The notes under the pieces are model-generated. The model ran no database searches, had not been told where the DNA came from, and was given only the letters and a program-made list of their open reading frames with translations. Below, one piece after another: positions 24,061-58,724 of a stretch of 64,000 nt of DNA. Source of the stretch: the human T2T-CHM13v2.0 reference genome, Homo sapiens. How positions within the stretch are numbered: the first letter of the stretch is position 1; the number at the start of each line of letters is the position of its first letter. The stretch covers positions 2,208,001 to 2,272,000 of the forward strand of contig CP086569.2 of the NCBI GenBank assembly GCA_009914755.4, in the 5' to 3' direction. Position numbers and translations under genes: made by a program.

Positions 24061-24565
24061 GGGATTAGGATGTGGGCGTCATTGGGGCCATTATTCTGTC
24101 TATCACATGGAGATTAGGATGTGGACATCTTTGGGGCCATTATTCTGTCTCCCACATGGGGATTAGGACATGGACATCTTTGGGGGTCATTATTCTGTCT
24201 CCCACATGGGGATTAGGACATGGACCTCTTTGGGTGTCATTATTCTGTCTACCACATGGGGATTAGAATGTGGACCTCTTTGGGGGACATTATTCTTTCT
24301 ACCACATGGGGATTAGAATGTGGACATCTTTGGGGGACATTATTCTGTCTACCACATGGGGATTAGGACGTGGACATCTTTGGGGCCATCACCTGTCTAC
24401 TACATGGAGATTAGGACATGGACATTTGGGGGGTCATTATTCTGTCTACCACATTAGGATTAGGATGTTGACATCTCTGGAGCCATTATGTTGTCTATCA
24501 CATGCGGATGAGGACATGGACATCACTGGGGCCATCACTTTTTCTACCAGAAGAGGAAAGAGTAT
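24055..24565. repeat. minisatellite of about 57-bp units x about 9, amplified from the 3' end of the MLT1-type LTR
   Basis: (ggggattaggacatggacatctttgggggccattattctgtctaccacat)n with variants; produces the periodic peptides in ORFs 24072-24266 and 24270-24680. Confidence 0.85.
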
Positions 24566-28384: not shown

Positions 28385-29010
28385 AAAGTAATAGGTAGAT
28401 AGACAAATAGATGGATGGATGGGCGGGGTAAGTGGATGAATGGATAACTGGATAGAAAGTTGGGTGCATAGATGGATGAATTATTAGGTGGATTAATGGA
28501 TGGACAGATAGATGGGTAAATGGATAAGTGGGTAGCTAGGTAGTTGGATAGTTGATTGGATGAATGGATGGATAGATAGTCAGATAGATGTTATATAGAG
28601 AGATGGATGGATGTATATATGGATGATGGATGGACAGATGGATGGGTGGATGGATGAATGGGTAGATACATAATTGGTTAGTTGATTGAATGAATGGATG
28701 GATAGATAGTTGAATAGATGGTTATAGGGAGAGATGAATGGATGGATATATGGATGATGGATGGGCTGATAAATGGGTAGATGGATGATGGGCAGATAAA
28801 TAGTTGGATAGTTGATTGGACGAATGGGCGGATAGATAGTTGGATAGATGGTTATATGGAGAGATAAAGGGATGATAGATGGACAGACTGCATGGGTGAA
28901 TGGATGCATAGATAGTTGGATAGATACTTGGTTGGATGGATTACAGATGGAAAAATAGATGAATATATGTATGGATAGATAAATAATCGCATAGATGGTT
29001 GGATGGACAG
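28385..29010. repeat. compound (GGAT/GATA/GATG)n minisatellite with about 130-bp higher-order units
   Basis: ggatggatgggcggggtaagtggatgaatggataactggatag...; blocks 28545-28640, 28675-28765 and 28805-28890 are about 85-90% identical; source of the 174-aa reverse ORF 28580-29104. Confidence 0.9.
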
Positions 29011-38779: not shown

Positions 38780-39070
38780 TATCTCACTCATAACTATATA
38801 TACAATTCTAATATATTCTAAATAGCTATATATACTATTCTAAATCTATTCTAAATAACTACATATACTATCCTAAATAATTCTAAATAACTACATATAC
38901 AACTCTAAATCTATTCTAAATAATTCTAAATAATGATATATACAACTCTAAATCTATTCTAAATAACTATATATACAATTCTAAATCTATTCTAAATAAC
39001 TATATATATAAAATTATAAATATATTCTAAATAACTATATATAATTCTAAATAATTATACCTATATATAC
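38780..39070. repeat. AT-rich minisatellite, about 33-bp unit x about 8
   Basis: (aactatatatacaattctaaatctattctaaat)n with variants. Confidence 0.85.
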
Positions 39071-39204
39071 AATTCTAAATACATTCACACATATATTTTT
39101 AAAATATAAATTTGAAATAAATTGTGTATATGTATACAATTATTTTATATACTTATAAAATATATATATTCATTTATGACATTTATACATATATGTTTAT
39201 ATAG

Positions 39205-40475
<1,271 letters not shown>

Positions 40476-45956: not shown

Positions 45957-47376
45957 TGAGCGCATAATTACAGACAGTCTTCACCTTCCCCAGAGGAAAA
46001 CATAACAGCCTATCCCAAGGTTTCGTAATAAAAGCGTAAAATTGTCATAAACCCACAGTAGGTGTTCAATAAATGCATACATCTTGTTCCCACACCCGAA
46101 AAATCCTAGTTAGGAGGTGACCGAGGAGAGTTTACAACACAAATTGCACCTGAGGTTTTGCACACGAGTGAGTTTGATCCCTTTCCTCCAGAAGGCCGGC
46201 TACTCATTCAAAGGGCCCAGTTTGTTTCAAACTATTTTTGGAACTGTTTCAGAATTGCCTCCAAGCGCCTGTCTAGACCTTACCTTACACTGGCGCTATT
46301 TTGAGCTAAAAGCCATATTGATTAAATTGGCTTCTAAAGTTATCCCCCAGACTTGGCGCTGAAGGAGGCTTAGGTATTTCCAAAAATCCTAGCCTCTGCC
46401 TGGAAGGCTCCCCAGCTAAGGATGCAAGACAAGGACCAAGGACGACATTTCTTGAAAGATCCTGCCTCTGGGGATAGTTTCGGAAAGGAAGTGCTCAGGT
46501 TTGTGAGACAGCAGCAGGGCCCTGGGACCTTTCTCTGATGGGGGAATATCCCCCTCTAGGTCAGCACGCCCCATCACAGCACTGCATCTACTGTAGGTAC
46601 CTCCAAAGTCACCCTTTCTATTTCACTCATGTTTCCCTTGAATTTACACTTTACATGTTGCTAGACCAAATCGGCGGAGGGGAAAAAATAACTCATGGAA
46701 ACATGATCTTTTTAGAAATGGCATTACTCAGAAAGCACAGCAGGGGTTTGGCTTATGGTACGGTGTTGTTTTCCTGCTTTGAGGCGCTGTTACAGATTCT
46801 TCTTCCCACTGTACAGCTTCCCGGCCTGACATGCTGCCTTGGGAAGTGCGTGAAAGTGAACGCAGCCTCCTCTTCCTCTTAGGAGTCCTCCGTTTCGTGT
46901 CTCTTACATCCTGAAAGGACCCAGCTCTCTGAGTCAGGCCGCGGCACTGCCCCTCCTAGCTCCAAATCCACATCTATTTCCCACTTCACTTTCTAAGTGG
47001 GATTTAGCTTAACACTGTGGAGCTTGGAGTATCACAGAGCTAATATGTAAGACCCAGGCTGGTCTTTCCTTCTCTGTCGGCACCTTGGAATTCTCTACTA
47101 CCTTTCAGCCTGCCTCTCCGCTCCCCCCGCTTTTTTTTTACAGACATCTGCAATGCAGGCAAGTTCCAATATGAACATCTGTGGAACACAGCCTGAGAAG
47201 AGGAGATATAAAAGGATCTTAATTTTAGGGTGAAGGAGGAGAAGAATGGTTAAGAAGCGTCTCAATAACCTAAGCCACAACCTCAGGCTTTGAAAACAAC
47301 ATTAACTGAGAACAGCTTTGAAAACAACAGTGAGATTTTCAACTCAATTCTTTTTCCCACAGGTCACTTATCTTGA

Positions 47377-50150: not shown

Positions 50151-52061
50151 AATACCCAAATGGTCACCATGATCTAAGCACTCCCTTGGAGAACTGATGG
50201 ATGTCAGTGTGCACTGATGGACATAAAACAGGACCACAGAGAAGAGTCACACTTGTAGAAAGAAATGCCCCCCAATCTCTAGCCAAAAGCTCCAAGTGGG
50301 AGTCTGTGTCACTTCCAGTGACAACTCTGCACTGACTCACTGCGTGACCTTGGGCAAGAAGCACTTCTACCTGCCTTGGTTTGTGGACCTGAAACAGGGA
50401 TGTTAGCACCAACCTGGCATCTTCCCAGGACAGTGGCGCAGATCTGGAGGAACACCTCACGGGAAGGTCTTTTGTAGATCACACAGGAGGCTACACAGAC
50501 ATGAGTTACTGTGATTTCCTTTTGTCTAAAGGTTTCTTTCTGGTTCTAGCCTTGTCTATCTGGGGGAAGGAGACTATCTGTGATGGAGATGAGCGTTCTT
50601 TTCCAAGAGCGTTAATTAGCTGTTCACTTTGTGACTTCGTGAGCGCCCTACCATTTGAATTCTGAATCCCTGCGTTTTGTTCTCATTTGGTGATGAGCCT
50701 TTCAGCAGACATGGTAGTGACTATTAAGTAGGCATTTTAATGCAATCGTTCATAGAATCAATATGTAGACGGCTAGTTTCTAATTTATGAGAAGGCATTC
50801 TCTGGGAAATTGAATAAACAGTGCTCGATTGGAATATGGAAATTTTATATAAGAAAAATAATCCGAGAGAGGCTGAGAATGTACAAGCTCTAAGGAATCA
50901 TCAGATGTGAACAGGACTTCAGCTATCATGTTTAGGGTGAGCTTCGTTAGTGGCTCACATCTAGTTTCAGCTGCAACTGTATTTTCATATCGTTCCCAGG
51001 CAAGCCCCGCGAGTGACTGACTCCACGACCCTGTTTCTTCCCAAACCCTCACCTGAGAAACAGGCTTCTTGGATTAAATCTTCCTTTTCCTATTCGACTA
51101 GCCCGGTGGGTTTGTGCTTGGCGTAACTTTGGGCCCCCTGGGTGGGATGTGCTTGCGTGAAGCTCCAGTAGCTTTTCCTCTGTGCCGGGAATAATTTGCA
51201 AAGCGTCCTATTTTGGATTTTCATAATCAAGCTTCTACCCCGTTTCTTTTCAGTTAATTTAATACCTGGAGCACACGCAGTACTTCAAAAATATTGGTCC
51301 GTTCTGGTGTCAGAGAGTCTTTTTGGACTGAGATGTAAAAGTCCTACATTTGGGTATGTGAGCTGGGAGTTGGGGGGCCAGGCTGAGGAGAAGCAACAAA
51401 TTCCAGAGACAAACTTGGCATCTTGGGAGATGTAATACACGCACCCAGCCACAGAGTCCCAGGAGAATGTATTTTAATGGAGAATGTGGAGGGACTTTGC
51501 AAATGTTTTCATTTTCTCAAATCATATCTGTTATCCTGAAAGTGGTGTCTGTTCCCCCTAACGCCCCCCCGCTCCCTCCCCAACCCTTTGCAGACACTGG
51601 CATCTGTGGACATGAGTTAGGTGCTGCAGTACCACTCACTGTGTCAACTACAGTATTAACTACGGAAAACACACACACAGTCACAGTCACACTGACACTC
51701 ACACCCTAACCATCCCAAATCAGACATTTGCAGTCCCACGGGATTTCCAAAGATTCCCCGGACAAGCAATCTATAGATTATCCTGGGACCAGAAAAAAAA
51801 AAGTCCTAGGATTTTTAGTTTCCTTAACCCTCAAGTGGCTGGAAACTGTTAATCAGAGAGGAATGAACATAAATAACACCAAGCCGAGCTCCGTCTGATC
51901 CGAAGTGAGCCCCCAAACAGCTTCTGTCTGCCCTGATTACCAAAGGAAGCCATGCCCACGCATAAATTGGCAGTCTATTTAAACTGGGTGTTCTTCCTCA
52001 CAGTTTTTTTTTTTTCCCAGAGAAATATTCAAAGGCAGGCATTTTTCTGGCTAAGAAGATA

Positions 52062-52067
52062 TTTATT
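52062..52067 (-). terminator. candidate poly(A) signal AATAAA (reverse strand) about 860 nt downstream of the micro-ORF stop
   Basis: plus-strand tttatt at 52062-52067 is AATAAA on the reverse strand, followed (reverse strand) by ...cttcttagccagaaaaatgcctgcctttgaatatttctc; would end a roughly 1.0-1.7 kb single-exon transcript from the CpG island. Confidence 0.2.
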
Positions 52068-52079
52068 TAAGTCACAGAT

Positions 52080-53830
52080 TGCTTCACCTTCCCAAACTTG
52101 CCCGGCACACTTGGTGTAGGGCAAAGCCTCATCCTTGTCACATCTGTCCCTCTCCCCTCTGGAGCAGGGGCCAGAGGACTTTGGAGGACACCTACTCCCC
52201 CCACCCCCAAGGCTTCGGCTTCCCAGGGGGGGCTTGGCAGTGTGAGAAAGGCAAACCGCCTTCCGACCTGGTTGAAATTTTGTTTCCCATTGCTCCCTAG
52301 AGGTGTCCCTTGGCCGTGGATAACGCTCACTCTGTTCCTAGCCTCGCGCTCACCGTGTTTGTCCATGGAGGTTATAGGGAACTTGAGTGCGGGGTCCCCA
52401 CCGCCGGAGCAGAGGGCTAGGGACCCGATAGCGCCTGGTGTGCCATAGCGCATTGGACCCACCCGAGAGCCCGCGTTCTGCTGCACCGGTGGCGGCCACA
52501 GGCGGGAGCGCCTATGCGCCTTGGACCCAAGGCGCCCAGGGGGTGGGTGGGACGGACCTGGAGGGGGTACAGGGGGGGCCTGCGCCCACCTCTCTGCACG
52601 CGCATCTGCCGCTTCCCGTGCCCCATAGGGGAGCCCCGGGCTCCGTGAATCCTCGGGTTCAGTCCCGCGTCCGGATTCCGCGTCCTCCCCGAAGTTGGGG
52701 CTCCCCAACCGTGGCCCCCCAAAGCGCCCGCACGAGCGCACTCACCCGCTCTCCCCGGTGCGTCCCTGAAGGTCAAGGCCAGGAGGCGGTGGAGGTGCAG
52801 GGCGGGCGGTGGGGCCCGGAGTAGGGGGCGCGGGCGCCGAGCTGGGGGGCACCGCGGGACGGCTCAGTCCCCATGGCCCTGGCGCTGGGGGCGCCCCCCG
52901 CCTGGCGACCCCGGGGGTCCGCGGCGCTCAGATGCCGTGGTCACAGTCCACATCGCGGCAGATGTACCAGAGGATCACGTAGAGGATGAGGAGGATGGCG
53001 AAGATGAAGAGGGCCACCAGGATCGCCTTGGTCACCGGCGAGATGAGAGACTGCATGGCCCCAGCGGGGCGCGCGGGAGGGCGGGGGGCGCGCGGGGGCG
53101 CGGGGCGCGGCGCTCACGACCCCCGAGCGCGCCCGGAGCCCCGCGCCGGCCCCGCGCCGCATCCGCAATGCTCCGTGCCCGGGACAGACGCTGCCTGGGT
53201 GGCTGCTCGGCGGCGGCGGTGGTGGCAGTGGTGGCTGCTCGGAGGCCGGCGCGCTCGGGTGCAGGCGGCTGCGCGCGGGGCTCCCACCGCCCGGGTCCCC
53301 CCAGCTGCTGGCGCTCACCGGGCCCGGCGGCCGCTGGGCTGGGCTGGGGGCACGGGGGGCCCTGGGGGCGGCCGGGAGGAGGGGGCGGCGGCCATGGGGG
53401 AGAGCTGGAGGAAGGCGGCGCGCCGGGCAAGTCCCCCGAAAACTTGGGGCGGAGGCGGCGCGGTGACAGGTGGAAACGCCAGCCCCGCGGGCAGCAGCGC
53501 GCAGCCGTCCACTGGCGGCGGGGGGCGCGGGGGCGCGGGAGGGAGGCGCGGGGGCGAGCGCGCGGGGAGGGGCTGCGGCACTGGGCGGGGGGCCTCCCTT
53601 TGCAGATGGGGAGGGTCGGGGGAGAGCAGGCGTCCCCGACTGCGCGCCTTTCCATCACCTCTCCCACCTCTCTGCTTTTCCCGGCCCCCTCTCTCCAGCG
53701 CAGCGGTGGATATCTCTCTCGTCCAGGTCTTGCATCTCACCCCTTCTTTGGGAGTCCCCTTCCTTTCCTCTTTTCCTCACTCTCACCCTGCACCCCGGTA
53801 TGGGTGAGCTGCGATATTCTCATCAAAGAA
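52080..53830. promoter_or_regulatory. CpG island (promoter-like), very GC- and CpG-rich core 52740-53620
   Basis: dense CpG (gcgcgc, ccgcgg, ggcgcgg) with many Sp1-type GC boxes (gggcgg/ccgccc), e.g. 53064-53110 gcggggcgcgcgggagggcggggggcgcgcgggggcgcggggcgcgg; the only CpG island in the window. Confidence 0.85.
52928..53056 (-). CDS. candidate single-exon micro-ORF, 42 aa, single-pass transmembrane micropeptide (unrecognised)
   Basis: reverse strand atgcagtctctcatctcgccggtgaccaaggcgatcctggtggccctcttcatcttcgccatcctcctcatcctctacgtgatcctctggtacatctgccgcgatgtggactgtgaccacggcatctga = MQSLISPVTKAILVALFIFAILLILYVILWYICRDVDCDHGI*; 20-residue hydrophobic core; codon-position GC 52%/29%/93% (39 of 42 codons end in G/C) against uniformly GC-rich surroundings; Kozak-compatible ggggccATGc; inside CpG island. 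Confidence 0.45.
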   Translation of the reverse strand: MQSLISPVTKAILVALFIFAILLILYVILWYICRDVDCDHGI

Positions 53831-58188: not shown

Positions 58189-58724
58189 TAGAAACTCATG
58201 GACAAGATGAACCATGAGCCCTGGGGCAGGCAGATGAGGACAGGAAAAGTTCCCCATTGACTAATTCATTCCTGGGTGATTAGAAGTATTGGAAGGATTT
58301 TATCACTTCTGATTGGCTCAGTATCTGTGTGAGTAAGAGCTGCTCATGGGCTGACCAGAATCTGCTCCAGGTGGACAGCTATCTCTGGGTCTGTTTACTG
58401 AAGAAACGTGTGTACTTTCTTGAATGTGCTACAACTCTTCAGGGTATCCCTGGAGAACTTTGGGATAGGTCCAGCATTCCATGTAGAAGATGGAACATCT
58501 TTCCCAAGAGTTTTTGGATCGTGTCTATCTCTGGCTTGACTCAATTGCCTAAAGTAATTGAATAATAAGTGCTTTTCCTCTGCTTCACTTTGAATGCTGA
58601 AACATGCGTTTTGTTTTTTAACCAGAGGAAACTTGCCCAAATTCTTGACAATCCTGGGCTCCTTTGGAGGATTGAAAATCTTGGGTCCTGGCTCTGTCTC
58701 CTGGATCTGCACGTTGGGTCATCA

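What the first reader, a model, noticed from the sequence alone, without database searches (positions are those of the whole stretch)
52080..53830. Sole CpG island of the window, strand-asymmetric (G-rich on the + strand) with G-quadruplex-prone GC-box arrays; likely promoter, possibly bidirectional
The 1.7-kb island contains dense CpGs and many GGGCGG or CCGCCC boxes. From about 53060 to 53620 the + strand is strongly G-rich (runs of GGGG separated by CG), so + direction transcription would give a G-rich non-template strand (R-loop and G4 prone). A reverse-strand transcript would carry a C-rich leader before the micro-ORF. A Kozak-perfect + strand ATG at 53394 (gcggccATGG) opens a low-complexity Gly/Arg/Ala frame. 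A possible GT donor follows at about 53471 (acag|gtgg). This could be a divergent first exon or a chance feature.
Basis: partly seen in the sequence, partly recalled or inferred. Interest (0 to 1): 0.5.

Follow-up and report, generated by a model that had tools for sequence, protein, structure and literature searches.

The report
CpG island enclosing conserved microprotein gene
The GC-rich patch is a genuine but ordinary CpG-island promoter, and its main content is a tiny minus-strand gene for a 42-amino-acid membrane protein that is identical from primates to birds; the G-quadruplex/GC-box "arrays" and the plus-strand start codon are by-products of base composition.

Summary
The island is real: 52251-53750, 1.5 kb, 73% GC, CpG o/e 0.81. 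It is the only non-Alu island in this primate window. The + strand G excess in 53060-53620 is also real (skew +0.21) but patchy. GC boxes (8) and G4 motifs (3) occur no more often than the island's own dinucleotide composition predicts.

The island wraps a compact minus-strand gene:
- conserved upstream blocks (53301-53560);
- a 125-nt leader 95-100% identical in four mammals;
- a 42-aa single-pass membrane ORF (53056-52928), identical in primates, carnivores and birds (variable sites by codon position 4/0/21);
- an invariant splice donor (52745);
- an invariant poly(A) signal (52067-52062).

The + strand G-richness is therefore the conserved C-rich 5' leader of this gene read from the other strand.

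The "Kozak-perfect" + strand ATG lies in a CCATGG palindrome. Its + strand frame is broken by indels in other mammals, while the minus-strand reading opens a conserved uORF.

Synteny (CD99 and ASMT in vole, subtelomeric position) places the locus in pseudoautosomal region 1. Bidirectionality is plausible, because vole CD99 sits head-to-head 596 bp away and the literature describes a MIC2R/CD99P1 CpG island, but it is not shown for this window.

As a CpG island this is ordinary. The enclosed gene is the more interesting item.

The parts
52251..53750 (.). CpG island: 1500 bp, GC 73.4%, 163 CpG, CpG o/e 0.81.
   Evidence: sliding-window criteria. One search shows an island at the same position relative to the ORF in every orthologous locus examined.
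52928..53056 (-). Micro-ORF of 42 codons plus TGA: MQSLISPVTKAILVALFIFAILLILYVILWYICRDVDCDHGI. It has one hydrophobic span (about residues 11-32) and start context GCCATGC.
   Evidence: identical peptide in 10 of 11 loci including 4 birds; variable sites by codon position 4/0/21; 19 codons with only synonymous changes; the only 3 amino-acid changes (I>V/L) are in the vole.
53057..53190 (-). Ultra-conserved GC-rich 5' leader or core-promoter block directly upstream of the start codon. It is G-rich then C-rich in gene orientation. On the + strand it appears as G4 motif 53066-53105 followed by the C-rich stretch 53113-53170.
   Evidence: 95-100% three-way identity (window, L001, cat) over 53180-53057 with no indels; L011 is also near-identical; the predicted hairpin (-92.9 kcal/mol) is not more stable than shuffles (z +0.24).
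52941..53162 (-). Upstream ATG at -106 (ATG 53162-53160, context GCGGATGC) opening a 73-codon ORF that overlaps the whole micro-ORF out of frame.
   Evidence: the uATG is present in the window, titi monkey (where it is in frame with the micro-ORF, = P0017), L001, cat and L011/L012; it is absent in L013 and the vole.
53315..53395 (-). uORF1, MAAAPSSRPPPGPPVPPAQPSGRRAR*.
   Evidence: start, stop and frame are kept in titi monkey (23 aa), L001 and cat (25 aa). The only indel against L001/cat is 3 nt.
53301..53560 (-). Conserved upstream blocks (distal 5'UTR and/or promoter), including the invariant CACCTGTCACCGCGC (E-box plus TGTCA) at about 53462-53476.
   Evidence: 70-85% three-way identity in 53500-53301, against 5-30% in neighbouring bins; 92-97% identity with titi monkey in 53440-53560 against an 80% background; the E-box is kept in the window, titi monkey, L001, cat and swallow.
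53181..53300 (.). Poorly conserved GC-rich spacer. About 95 nt are absent from L001 and cat. It contains a 17-nt direct repeat spaced 32 nt apart (53198-53214 and 53230-53246).
   Evidence: 5-22% three-way identity; repeat family D2.
52724..52789 (-). Conserved block TGACCTTCAGG...GG|GTGAGT containing a strong minus-strand splice donor. The G of the GT is at 52745, which is 182 nt past the stop codon.
   Evidence: 10.3 bits, the best donor in the region. (GGTGAGT and TGACCTTCAGG invariant in five mammals). (86% identity to L001 over 66 nt).
52060..52076 (-). Invariant block TGTGACTTAAATAAATA containing the poly(A) signal AATAAA (52067-52062). The predicted cleavage site is about 52045.
   Evidence: identical in the window, L001 and cat (titi monkey differs by one base after the hexamer). 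It is the first AATAAA downstream of the ORF in both the window and L001.
53066..53554 (+). Three canonical G4 motifs on the + strand (53066-53105, 53336-53385, 53520-53554). This is the template strand for the minus-strand gene. One C-rich motif lies at 53120-53153.
   Evidence: regular-expression search and G4Hunter. (number not above compositional expectation). (2-3 antisense motifs upstream of the ORF in non-rodent mammals, 1-2 in birds, 0 in vole).
53394..53807 (+). This is a chance ORF and is not conserved.
   Evidence: frame-breaking indels (16, 1, 4, 34 nt) against L001, and similar ones against cat.
53467..53475 (+). It is weak. The bases are conserved, but as part of the conserved E-box block.
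   Evidence: (4.5 bits).

Best explanation
The island is the CpG-island promoter together with almost the whole transcription unit of a compact minus-strand gene. That gene encodes a 42-aa single-pass membrane microprotein and lies in the pseudoautosomal region (PAR1) of a primate sex chromosome.

Proposed mechanism:
1. (Inferred) A germline-unmethylated, TATA-less, GC-box-containing island directs dispersed initiation somewhere between about 53560 and 53100.
2. (Shown by conservation) The RNA runs leftward through a conserved C-rich leader that carries one conserved short uORF and one conserved overlapping upstream ATG. It then passes through the 42-codon ORF, past a conserved splice donor at 52745, to a conserved poly(A) signal at 52067-52062.
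3. (Inferred) The very GC-rich leader with its uATGs limits and possibly regulates translation of the microprotein by leaky scanning or reinitiation.

The + strand G-richness, GGGG runs and G4 motifs are the complement of this conserved C-rich leader, so the G4-prone strand is the template strand of the gene. The GC boxes are present at the density that the composition predicts. The + strand ATG and ORF are accidental. Divergent + strand transcription may exist, as it does at most CpG-island promoters, but no conserved + strand exon was found.
For: The island and its limits were measured. An island surrounds the orthologous ORF in primate, carnivore, other mammal and bird loci, and the leader is C-rich in gene orientation in most of them.

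The ORF is under strong purifying selection. Variable sites by codon position are 4/0/21. There is no amino-acid change between the primate window and four birds. The exact peptide is on record on 368 contigs.

Gene boundaries are conserved. The leader 53180-53057 is 95-100% identical with no indels, and the blocks at 53500-53301 are 70-85% identical. The donor GGTGAGT at 52745 is invariant in five mammals. The poly(A) block is invariant.

uORF1 keeps its start, stop and frame, and the uATG at -106 is kept in five mammals. An RNA-derived contig from a rodent RNA sample contains the 3' half of the ORF and at least 510 nt of 3'UTR.

PAR1 assignment: the vole locus has CD99 (tblastn E=9e-14 and 3e-7) and an ASMT-type methyltransferase (Pfam Dimerisation + Methyltransf_2) flanking the gene, about 50-70 kb from a chromosome end. 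The titi monkey, cat and L001 loci lie 1.3-1.9 Mb from contig ends. The window has 44 Alu matches and is colinear with the titi monkey at 82-84% identity.
Against: No transcription start, methylation, chromatin or ribosome data can be reached with these tools, so the start-site position and promoter activity are inferred only from conservation.

The negative GC skew of the leader in the direction of transcription is the opposite of the classic R-loop-forming skewed CpG-island promoter. The conserved uATG at -106 in a good context would, if transcribed, divert ribosomes from the main ORF. That argues either for a start site downstream of it or for strongly repressed translation.

The conserved donor 182 nt past the stop codon implies a spliced isoform whose acceptor I could not identify. 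The exact 42-aa protein carries no human accession or name in the protein collection, so human expression and translation are unverified here. The PAR1 placement rests on synteny in other species, not on mapping the window.
Confidence: 0.78

Rival explanations
1. Bidirectional promoter. Besides the minus-strand microprotein gene, the island drives a stable + strand transcript. The candidate is the first exon of the transcribed CD99 pseudogene CD99P1/MIC2R or another lncRNA. The G-rich non-template strand (53200-53620) would favour R-loops and G4s in that direction. This adds to the best explanation rather than replacing it.
For: In the vole, CD99 and the micro-ORF gene are head-to-head, 596 bp ATG to ATG, inside one island. 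[quoted passage not shown] That would fit a non-coding + strand exon. The skew is negative at 53100-53199 and positive at 53200-53599, as expected on either side of a divergent start-site pair near 53200. The bases of the 53470 GT are conserved in the titi monkey, L001 and cat.
Against: No CD99-like exon is detectable in the window or within 10 kb of the gene in the titi monkey, cat, L001 or swallow. Alignment of CD99 exon 1 sequences to the island scores at null level. Nothing to the right of 53574 is conserved with cat, and only one short block (58410-58557) is conserved with L001. The + strand donors are weak or not conserved. The vole intergenic region is a derived 103-bp x4 array of ETS plus ZNF143-like modules that is absent from all other loci, so the precedent may not transfer. 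The conserved 53301-53560 blocks are equally well explained as minus-strand 5'UTR or promoter.
Confidence: 0.4
2. The island marks a + strand protein-coding first exon that starts at the Kozak-perfect ATG 53394 and is spliced at about 53470.
For: GCGGCCATGG is a textbook initiation context. An open frame runs from 53394 to 53807. A GT lies at 53470.
Against: The frame is destroyed by indels of 16, 1, 4 and 34 nt in L001, with similar ones in cat. The peptide is low-complexity Gly/Arg/Ala, as expected from any frame of 83%-GC DNA. The donor scores only 4.5 bits. The ATG belongs to a CCATGG palindrome whose minus-strand reading opens a frame-conserved uORF.
Confidence: 0.02
3. The GC- and CpG-richness is a neutral by-product of the extreme recombination and GC-biased gene conversion of PAR1, not a promoter.
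For: The locus is inferred to be pseudoautosomal. The flanks diverge fast: 82-84% identity even to a New World monkey. The primate island has no housekeeping promoter motifs such as ETS, NRF1, YY1 or CRE.
Against: The island is sharply bounded within a window of 45.8% GC and o/e 0.33. It coincides exactly with a conserved gene from the promoter blocks to near the poly(A) site. It is present around the same ORF in birds, where, from general knowledge, this region is not a mammalian-type PAR. Parts of it are 95-100% conserved, the opposite of neutral drift.
Confidence: 0.03

Closest known systems
CpG-island (TATA-less, GC-box) promoters of small, lncRNA-like microprotein genes (general class)
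   Same: The island spans the 5' end. There is no TATA or CCAAT box on the gene strand, and GC boxes are present. The gene is a compact transcription unit with a short conserved ORF encoding a single-pass membrane peptide.
   Different: The island covers nearly the whole gene rather than only its 5' end. The leader is C-rich in the sense direction, giving a negative skew. Two conserved upstream ATGs and a 125-nt leader are better conserved than the ORF's synonymous sites.
MIC2R / CD99P1 CpG island in human PAR1 (Smith & Goodfellow 1994, as summarised in PMC5842202) and the neighbouring lncRNA LINC00102
   Same: It is a PAR1 location next to the CD99 gene family. The CpG island is associated with transcripts that lack a long ORF. 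In the vole the same island is shared with CD99 itself.
   Different: Identity of this window with that island could not be tested, because no human genome map is available here. No MIC2 exon 1/4/5-like sequence was detected in the window. That LINC00102 is the host transcript of the micro-ORF is my recollection of the map only.
SMIM36 (small integral membrane protein 36)
   Same: It is a short single-pass membrane protein. It shares the layout 'xPVT - TM helix - Y.CR..D'. UniRef labels the newt gene model P0031 for this locus 'Small integral membrane protein 36'. hhalign gives E 5.5e-4 and 41% identity over 34 columns.
   Different: The hhalign probability is only 30%. True SMIM36 is a 93-aa protein with a central TM helix, encoded elsewhere, and it coexists with this gene in the same groups (for example newts and birds). 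This protein is 42 aa with no C-terminal tail. It is at most a distant paralog.
GC-skewed, R-loop/G4-prone CpG-island promoters (Ginno et al. 2012/2013; from my own knowledge)
   Same: There is strong local GC skew and clustered G4 motifs within a CpG island.
   Different: In that class the non-template strand is G-rich downstream of the start site. Here the G-rich strand is the template strand of the only demonstrable gene. The class signature would hold only for a hypothetical + strand transcript.
uORF-controlled mRNAs (leaky scanning/reinitiation; general class)
   Same: There is a conserved short uORF plus a conserved overlapping out-of-frame uATG ahead of the main ORF.
   Different: Inclusion of these uATGs in the mRNA is unproven. 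The uORF peptide itself is only loosely conserved, and triplet-repeat slippage could explain the 3-nt indels.

Membership tests
CpG island (Gardiner-Garden & Frommer; Takai & Jones) | Length >=200 bp (>=500 bp under the stricter definition) | tested here: met
   1500 bp, 52251-53750.
CpG island (Gardiner-Garden & Frommer; Takai & Jones) | GC >=50% (55%) and CpG observed/expected >=0.6 (0.65) | tested here: met
   GC 73.4%, o/e 0.81. It is not repeat-derived, since no Alu match lies inside it.
CpG-island promoter | The 5' end of a gene lies in the island | tested here: met
   The conserved start codon, leader and upstream blocks of the minus-strand micro-ORF gene lie in the island. The same arrangement is seen in all orthologous loci.
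CpG-island promoter | Transcription initiates inside the island (CAGE/TSS-seq) | not testable with these tools
   No expression data for this species. The only evidence is an RNA-derived rodent contig covering the 3' half of the ORF and the 3'UTR.
CpG-island promoter | Unmethylated DNA with H3K4me3 | not testable with these tools
   Persistence of CpG at o/e 0.81 and in orthologs argues indirectly for germline hypomethylation.
CpG-island promoter | Enrichment of Sp1 GC boxes | tested here: inconclusive
   8 boxes are present, but about 8 are expected from the composition. 4-14 boxes occur in the 600 nt upstream of the ORF across the loci compared.
Bidirectional (head-to-head) promoter | An opposite-strand gene whose start lies within about 1 kb | tested here: inconclusive
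   Met in the vole (CD99, 596 bp away). No + strand exon could be demonstrated in the window.
Bidirectional (head-to-head) promoter | GC-skew sign switch at the divergent start sites | tested here: inconclusive
   A switch is present near 53200 (-0.11 to +0.17/+0.33). The pattern is interrupted on the left by the ORF (+0.15 to +0.30).
Protein-coding first exon on the + strand (ATG 53394) | Reading frame preserved in orthologs | tested here: not met
   Indels of 16, 1, 4 and 34 nt within 53394-53620 against L001, and similar ones against cat.
Protein-coding first exon on the + strand (ATG 53394) | Competent splice donor | tested here: not met
   CAG|GTGGAA scores 4.5 bits, well below the minus-strand donors at 10.3 and 8.8 bits.
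G4/R-loop-prone skewed CpG-island promoter | G-rich non-template strand downstream of the start site of the gene | tested here: not met
   For the minus-strand gene the sense leader is C-rich (skew -0.11 to -0.26 in the three 200-nt bins upstream of the ATG). The G4 motifs are on the template strand.
G4/R-loop-prone skewed CpG-island promoter | G4 motif density above the compositional background | tested here: not met
   3 observed vs 1.8 expected (island) or 2.4 expected (53060-53620); P=0.26 and 0.44.
SMIM36 family | Significant sequence or profile similarity and the same architecture (about 93 aa, central TM helix, conserved C-terminal tail) | tested here: not met
   hhalign probability 30%. 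42 aa against 93 aa. No Pfam family for either protein. True SMIM36 is annotated separately in the same groups.
Pseudoautosomal region 1 locus | Synteny with PAR1 genes (CD99, ASMT) and a subtelomeric position | tested here: met
   The vole locus has CD99 and an ASMT-type gene flanking the micro-ORF, 50-70 kb from the chromosome end. Three other loci lie 1.3-1.9 Mb from contig ends. The PAR1 gene order is from my own knowledge and from the gene lists.
Pseudoautosomal region 1 locus | Direct mapping of the window to the X/Y PAR1 | not testable with these tools
   No primate genome map or annotation is available here.
Structured RNA element in the leader | Folding energy beyond composition, or a match to a known family | tested here: not met
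   z = +0.24 against 200 shuffles. No Rfam match above noise.

The most novel reading that the evidence does not exclude
The island is the control region of an overlooked, amniote-invariant 42-aa membrane microprotein gene in PAR1, which in human annotation is probably hidden inside a 'non-coding' RNA. It could have escaped comparative gene finders because PAR1 was missing or unalignable in most older assemblies. Its translation would be gated by an exceptionally conserved GC-rich leader carrying a uORF and an overlapping uATG. The island would be the ancestral bidirectional promoter shared with the CD99 gene family, whose adjacent copy decayed to CD99P1 in primates.
Probability: 0.3. Interest if true: 0.55.

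Novelty: already known. Interest (0 to 1): 0.3.

Why it matters
As a CpG island this is routine. It shows that apparent 'GC-box/G4 arrays' and 'perfect Kozak ATGs' inside 80%-GC DNA should be tested against composition and cross-species frame conservation before being read as signals.

The useful outcome is the reassignment. The strand asymmetry that suggested a + strand exon is in fact the conserved C-rich leader of a minus-strand microprotein gene. That gene shows no amino-acid change between primates and birds and lies in the pseudoautosomal region, so it would have two active copies in both sexes and escape X inactivation.

If that gene is still annotated as non-coding in human, it is a good candidate for experimental follow-up. 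Its uATG-laden, ultra-conserved leader would be a testable case of translational control of a microprotein.

Tried and rejected
1. GC boxes and G4 motifs as enriched arrays. Rejected: counts equal the expectation from Markov-1 simulations of the island.
2. + strand coding exon from ATG 53394. Rejected: frame-breaking indels and a weak donor.
3. A special stable hairpin in the ultra-conserved leader. Rejected: -92.9 kcal/mol, but shuffles average -94.0 (z +0.24). Rfam shows only sub-threshold noise.
4. The micro-ORF is SMIM36, as the UniRef label on newt P0031 suggests. Rejected: the true SMIM36 family is distinct and the profile-profile probability is 30%. Pfam gives nothing for either.
5. Splicing inside the ORF, as in the newt, swallow and vole gene models. 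Rejected as the conserved product: that donor scores 3.6 bits, the three models' C-termini are unrelated to one another, and the unspliced C-terminus WYICRDVDCDHGI is conserved from fish-type sequences to mammals.
6. An intron between donor 53318 and the leader. Rejected: the interval is only about 40 nt in L001 and cat.
7. CD99-like (CD99P1) exons in the window. Not found by tblastn with human CD99 (sequence recalled from memory, then validated on the vole) or with vole exon 1, nor by Smith-Waterman alignment at the DNA level.
8. Downstream exons at conserved blocks. The 50.4-kb block is a MIR repeat core, and the 46.3-kb block looks like a non-coding conserved element.
9. Exact look-ups of the long GC-rich window ORFs, intended to fetch same-species or RNA contigs. 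Nothing on record.
10. Literature searches for the peptide string, for a pseudoautosomal microprotein, and for a CD99 bidirectional promoter. Nothing found. The 1994 MIC2R paper is not held.
Full report
OBSERVATION. The window is primate DNA. It contains 44 matches to an Alu core (0 expected), and it is colinear with a titi-monkey contig at 82-84% identity. A sliding-window scan finds one substantial CpG island at 52251-53750: 1500 bp, GC 73.4%, 163 CpG, observed/expected 0.81. The window as a whole has 45.8% GC and o/e 0.33. The other segments that pass the formal thresholds are 200-350 bp and borderline, and most overlap Alu copies.

The + strand G excess is real in 53060-53620 (281 G vs 183 C, skew +0.21). 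It is patchy, however. 53100-53199 is C-rich and 53600-53799 is strongly C-rich.

Three canonical G4 motifs lie on the + strand (53066-53105, 53336-53385, 53520-53554). G4Hunter places 18 of the window's 39 regions scoring >=1.5 inside 52-54 kb. When the island is simulated from its own dinucleotide composition, the counts are unremarkable. GC boxes are 7+1 observed vs 5.5+2.6 expected. G4-or-longer runs are 30 vs 28.4. G4 motifs are 3 vs 1.8. None is enriched. The 'arrays' are what any 80%-GC, G-skewed sequence contains.

WHAT THE ISLAND CONTAINS. In the middle of the island, on the minus strand, is a 42-codon ORF (53056-52928): MQSLISPVTKAILVALFIFAILLILYVILWYICRDVDCDHGI. This exact peptide is on record on 368 contigs. 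It is annotated only as 'hypothetical protein' in an Iriomote cat genome. Close homologs occur in other vertebrates, including 41-aa versions.

I compared eleven genomic loci: the window, titi monkey, cat-like, three other mammals, vole and four birds. The peptide is identical in ten of them. The ORF has 4, 0 and 21 variable sites at codon positions 1, 2 and 3. Nineteen codons carry only synonymous changes. The only three amino-acid changes (Ile to Val or Leu) are in the vole. This is an unambiguous coding signature.

All these loci have a CpG island from about -800 to +800 around the ORF's ATG. The few hundred bases upstream are C-rich in gene orientation in most of them.

GENE ANATOMY ON THE MINUS STRAND. 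Alignment of the upstream side (quantified) shows the following:
- 53180-53057 is 95-100% identical in the window, L001 and cat, with no indels. A fourth mammal (L011) is also nearly identical. This exceeds the conservation of the ORF's synonymous sites.
- 53300-53181 is unconserved. It includes about 95 nt present only in the window, with a short direct repeat.
- 53500-53301 is 70-85% identical.
- Conservation decays beyond about 53560.

The conserved distal part includes an invariant CACCTGTCACCGCGC block. It also includes a short uORF (ATG 53395-53393, stop at 53317-53315) whose start, stop and frame are retained in the titi monkey, L001 and cat (23-26 codons; the only indels are multiples of three). 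A second upstream ATG at -106 (53162) is retained in five mammals. It opens a frame that overlaps the whole micro-ORF, out of frame everywhere except the titi monkey.

Downstream of the stop codon, the block TGACCTTCAGG...GG|GTGAGT is invariant in five mammals. It contains the strongest splice donor in the region (52745, 10.3 bits). About 990 nt from the ATG lies the first AATAAA (52067-52062). It sits inside a 17-nt block, TGTGACTTAAATAAATA, that is identical in the window, L001 and cat.

An RNA-derived contig from a rodent sample shows that the gene is transcribed. That contig carries an intronless 253-aa syntaxin ORF chimerically joined to the 3' half of the micro-ORF and at least 510 nt of 3'UTR.

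I could not find the acceptor for the 52745 donor. The conserved blocks further left are a MIR repeat (about 50.4 kb) and what looks like a non-coding conserved element (46235-46411).

THE PLUS STRAND. The 'Kozak-perfect' ATG at 53394 is the + strand reading of a CCATGG palindrome. The minus-strand reading of the same palindrome is the uORF start. The + strand frame is interrupted by indels of 16, 1, 4 and 34 nt relative to L001, with similar ones in cat, so it is not coding. The GT at 53470 scores 4.5 bits. Its bases are conserved, but they lie inside the conserved E-box block, which the minus-strand promoter or 5'UTR explains equally well. Other + strand donors (53804, 54037, 54286) are moderate and only partly kept in the titi monkey. 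Nothing to the right of 53574 aligns with the cat locus, and only one short block (58410-58557) aligns with L001.

GENOMIC CONTEXT AND BIDIRECTIONALITY. In the vole the micro-ORF gene lies between a CD99 gene and an ASMT-type methyltransferase, 50-70 kb from the end of a 128.5-Mb chromosome. The CD99 identity was confirmed by tblastn with human CD99 (E 9e-14 and 3e-7), and the methyltransferase by Pfam Dimerisation + Methyltransf_2. The titi monkey, cat-like and L001 loci lie 1.3-1.9 Mb from contig ends. From my own knowledge and the gene lists, the known PAR1 order is ...AKAP17A-ASMT-DHRSX-ZBED1-(LINC00102, CD99P1)-CD99-XG. Together these place the window in pseudoautosomal region 1.

In the vole, CD99 and the micro-ORF gene are head-to-head with 596 bp between their ATGs, which is a true bidirectional promoter. 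[quoted passage not shown] A + strand non-coding partner is therefore plausible here.

I could not demonstrate it. No CD99-like exon is found in the window or within 10 kb in four other species. Alignment with CD99 exon 1 sequences scores at null level. The vole intergenic region is a derived four-fold 103-bp repeat of ETS plus ZNF143-like modules with CRE sites. The primate, carnivore and bird islands have only GC boxes and, in all but one bird locus, one conserved E-box. I put the probability of a stable + strand transcript starting in the island at about 0.4.

MECHANISM. Three things are shown by sequence comparison: an island conserved around a conserved gene, with conserved 5' and 3' landmarks. 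The rest is inferred. The island is probably a germline-unmethylated, TATA-less promoter with dispersed initiation between about 53560 and 53100. If the start sites lie upstream of 53395, the mRNA has a C-rich 5'UTR of at least 340 nt and more than 80% GC, with two uATGs, which would strongly limit translation of the microprotein. If they lie downstream of 53162, the conserved blocks act at the DNA level.

The leader's predicted structure is very stable (-92.9 kcal/mol), but no more so than shuffled sequence (z +0.24), and it matches no Rfam family. Why this leader is more conserved than the ORF's silent sites remains unexplained. For the demonstrable gene, the G4-prone strand is the template strand. 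The classic 'G-rich non-template strand, R-loop-prone' model does not apply unless a + strand transcript exists.

RELATION TO KNOWN THINGS. The island meets the formal CpG-island criteria and behaves as a CpG-island promoter. The protein is not SMIM36, despite a UniRef label on the newt model P0031. The real SMIM36 family was retrieved and is described in the preprint read. It is 93 aa with a central TM helix and is present separately in the same groups. Profile-profile comparison gives only 30% probability (E 5.5e-4; shared xPVT...TM...Y.CR..D layout), so the micro-ORF protein is at most a distant paralog. Neither the peptide nor a PAR1 microprotein turned up in the searchable literature or in the PhyloCSF new-gene supplement.

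VERDICT. The island and the local skew are real, but the 'arrays' are compositional. As a CpG island it is an ordinary, already known kind of feature, hence interest 0.3. The enclosed invariant microprotein gene and its ultra-conserved, uATG-bearing leader are the parts that deserve follow-up.

Noticed in passing
window 52928-53056 (-): The 42-aa single-pass membrane micro-ORF is 100% identical between the primate window, carnivores and four bird loci (variable sites by codon position 4/0/21). It carries no name or human accession in the protein collection. Gene models in newt, swallow and vole splice it at a weak in-ORF donor (3.6 bits) to mutually unrelated C-termini, and these are probably mis-annotations.
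   Followed up: yes
window 53057-53190 (-): The 125-134-nt leader directly upstream of the ATG is 95-100% identical in four mammals, which is better conserved than the ORF's synonymous sites. Folding stability is explained by composition alone (z +0.24). The reason for the conservation is unexplained.
   Followed up: partly
window 53315-53395 (-) and 53160-53162 (-): There is a conserved short uORF (MAAAP...GRRAR*, 23-26 codons in primates and carnivores). There is also a conserved upstream ATG at -106 whose frame overlaps the whole micro-ORF. In the titi monkey an indel puts that ATG in frame (P0017, 71 aa).
   Followed up: partly
window 52724-52789 (-): The block TGACCTTCAGG...GGTGAGT is invariant in five mammals, 140-205 nt past the stop codon. 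It is a strong splice donor (52745) whose acceptor I could not find. Its + strand reading, TGAAGGTCA, resembles a nuclear-receptor half-site with a 5' extension; I recognised this from memory and did not test it.
   Followed up: partly
window 53181-53300: This GC-rich spacer has about 95 nt absent from L001 and cat. It contains a 17-nt direct repeat (53198-53214 and 53230-53246) and (GCC/GGT)n-like triplets. It looks like a lineage-specific expansion between two conserved modules.
   Followed up: partly
window 46235-46411: This is a conserved non-coding element (73-76% identity to L001 and cat, against largely unalignable flanks). It contains GCCAATTTAATCAATATGGCTTTTAGCTCAAAATAG, has no exon-like boundaries, and has non-triplet indels. 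It may be an enhancer downstream of the micro-ORF gene.
   Followed up: partly
window 50374-50560: The block conserved with L001 and cat carries the MIR SINE core (CCAAGGTCACACAGC). It is an ancient repeat, not an exon.
   Followed up: yes
window 24061-24549; 28496-28883; 38790-39086; 39510-40063: These are minisatellites: a 50-bp unit x9.9; a (GATG/GATA)-rich 130-bp unit x3 that causes the +0.51 GC skew at 28-29 kb; and two AT-rich arrays that cause the 24% GC at 39-40 kb. They fit a subtelomeric/PAR1 setting.
   Followed up: partly
L015 9405-10000 (vole): The CD99/micro-ORF intergenic region is a four-fold 103-bp tandem repeat of ZNF143-like (ACTACATTTCCC) plus ETS (CCGGAAGT) modules, with a TGACGTCA site abutting the micro-ORF ATG. 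The promoter architecture has turned over completely relative to primates, carnivores and birds.
   Followed up: partly
L017 (Logan SRR31578017 contig), 1561-2975: This is a chimeric RNA-seq assembly. An intronless 253-aa syntaxin-6/10-type ORF is joined at codon 16 of the micro-ORF to the rest of its mRNA. The 3'UTR is full of TGACGTCA-like repeats.
   Followed up: partly
proteins P0008, P0014, P0015: These 250-282-aa 'proteins' in the micro-ORF's 90% cluster run straight through its stop codon with W at that position and are unusually W-rich. They look like gene calls that read TGA as Trp on vertebrate DNA, which would make them database artefacts.
   Followed up: no
protein P0031 (newt): The UniRef name 'Small integral membrane protein 36' is attached to a model of this locus, although true SMIM36 (93-94 aa) is annotated separately in other salamanders (P0110, P0113). 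The label is probably propagated from weak similarity.
   Followed up: yes
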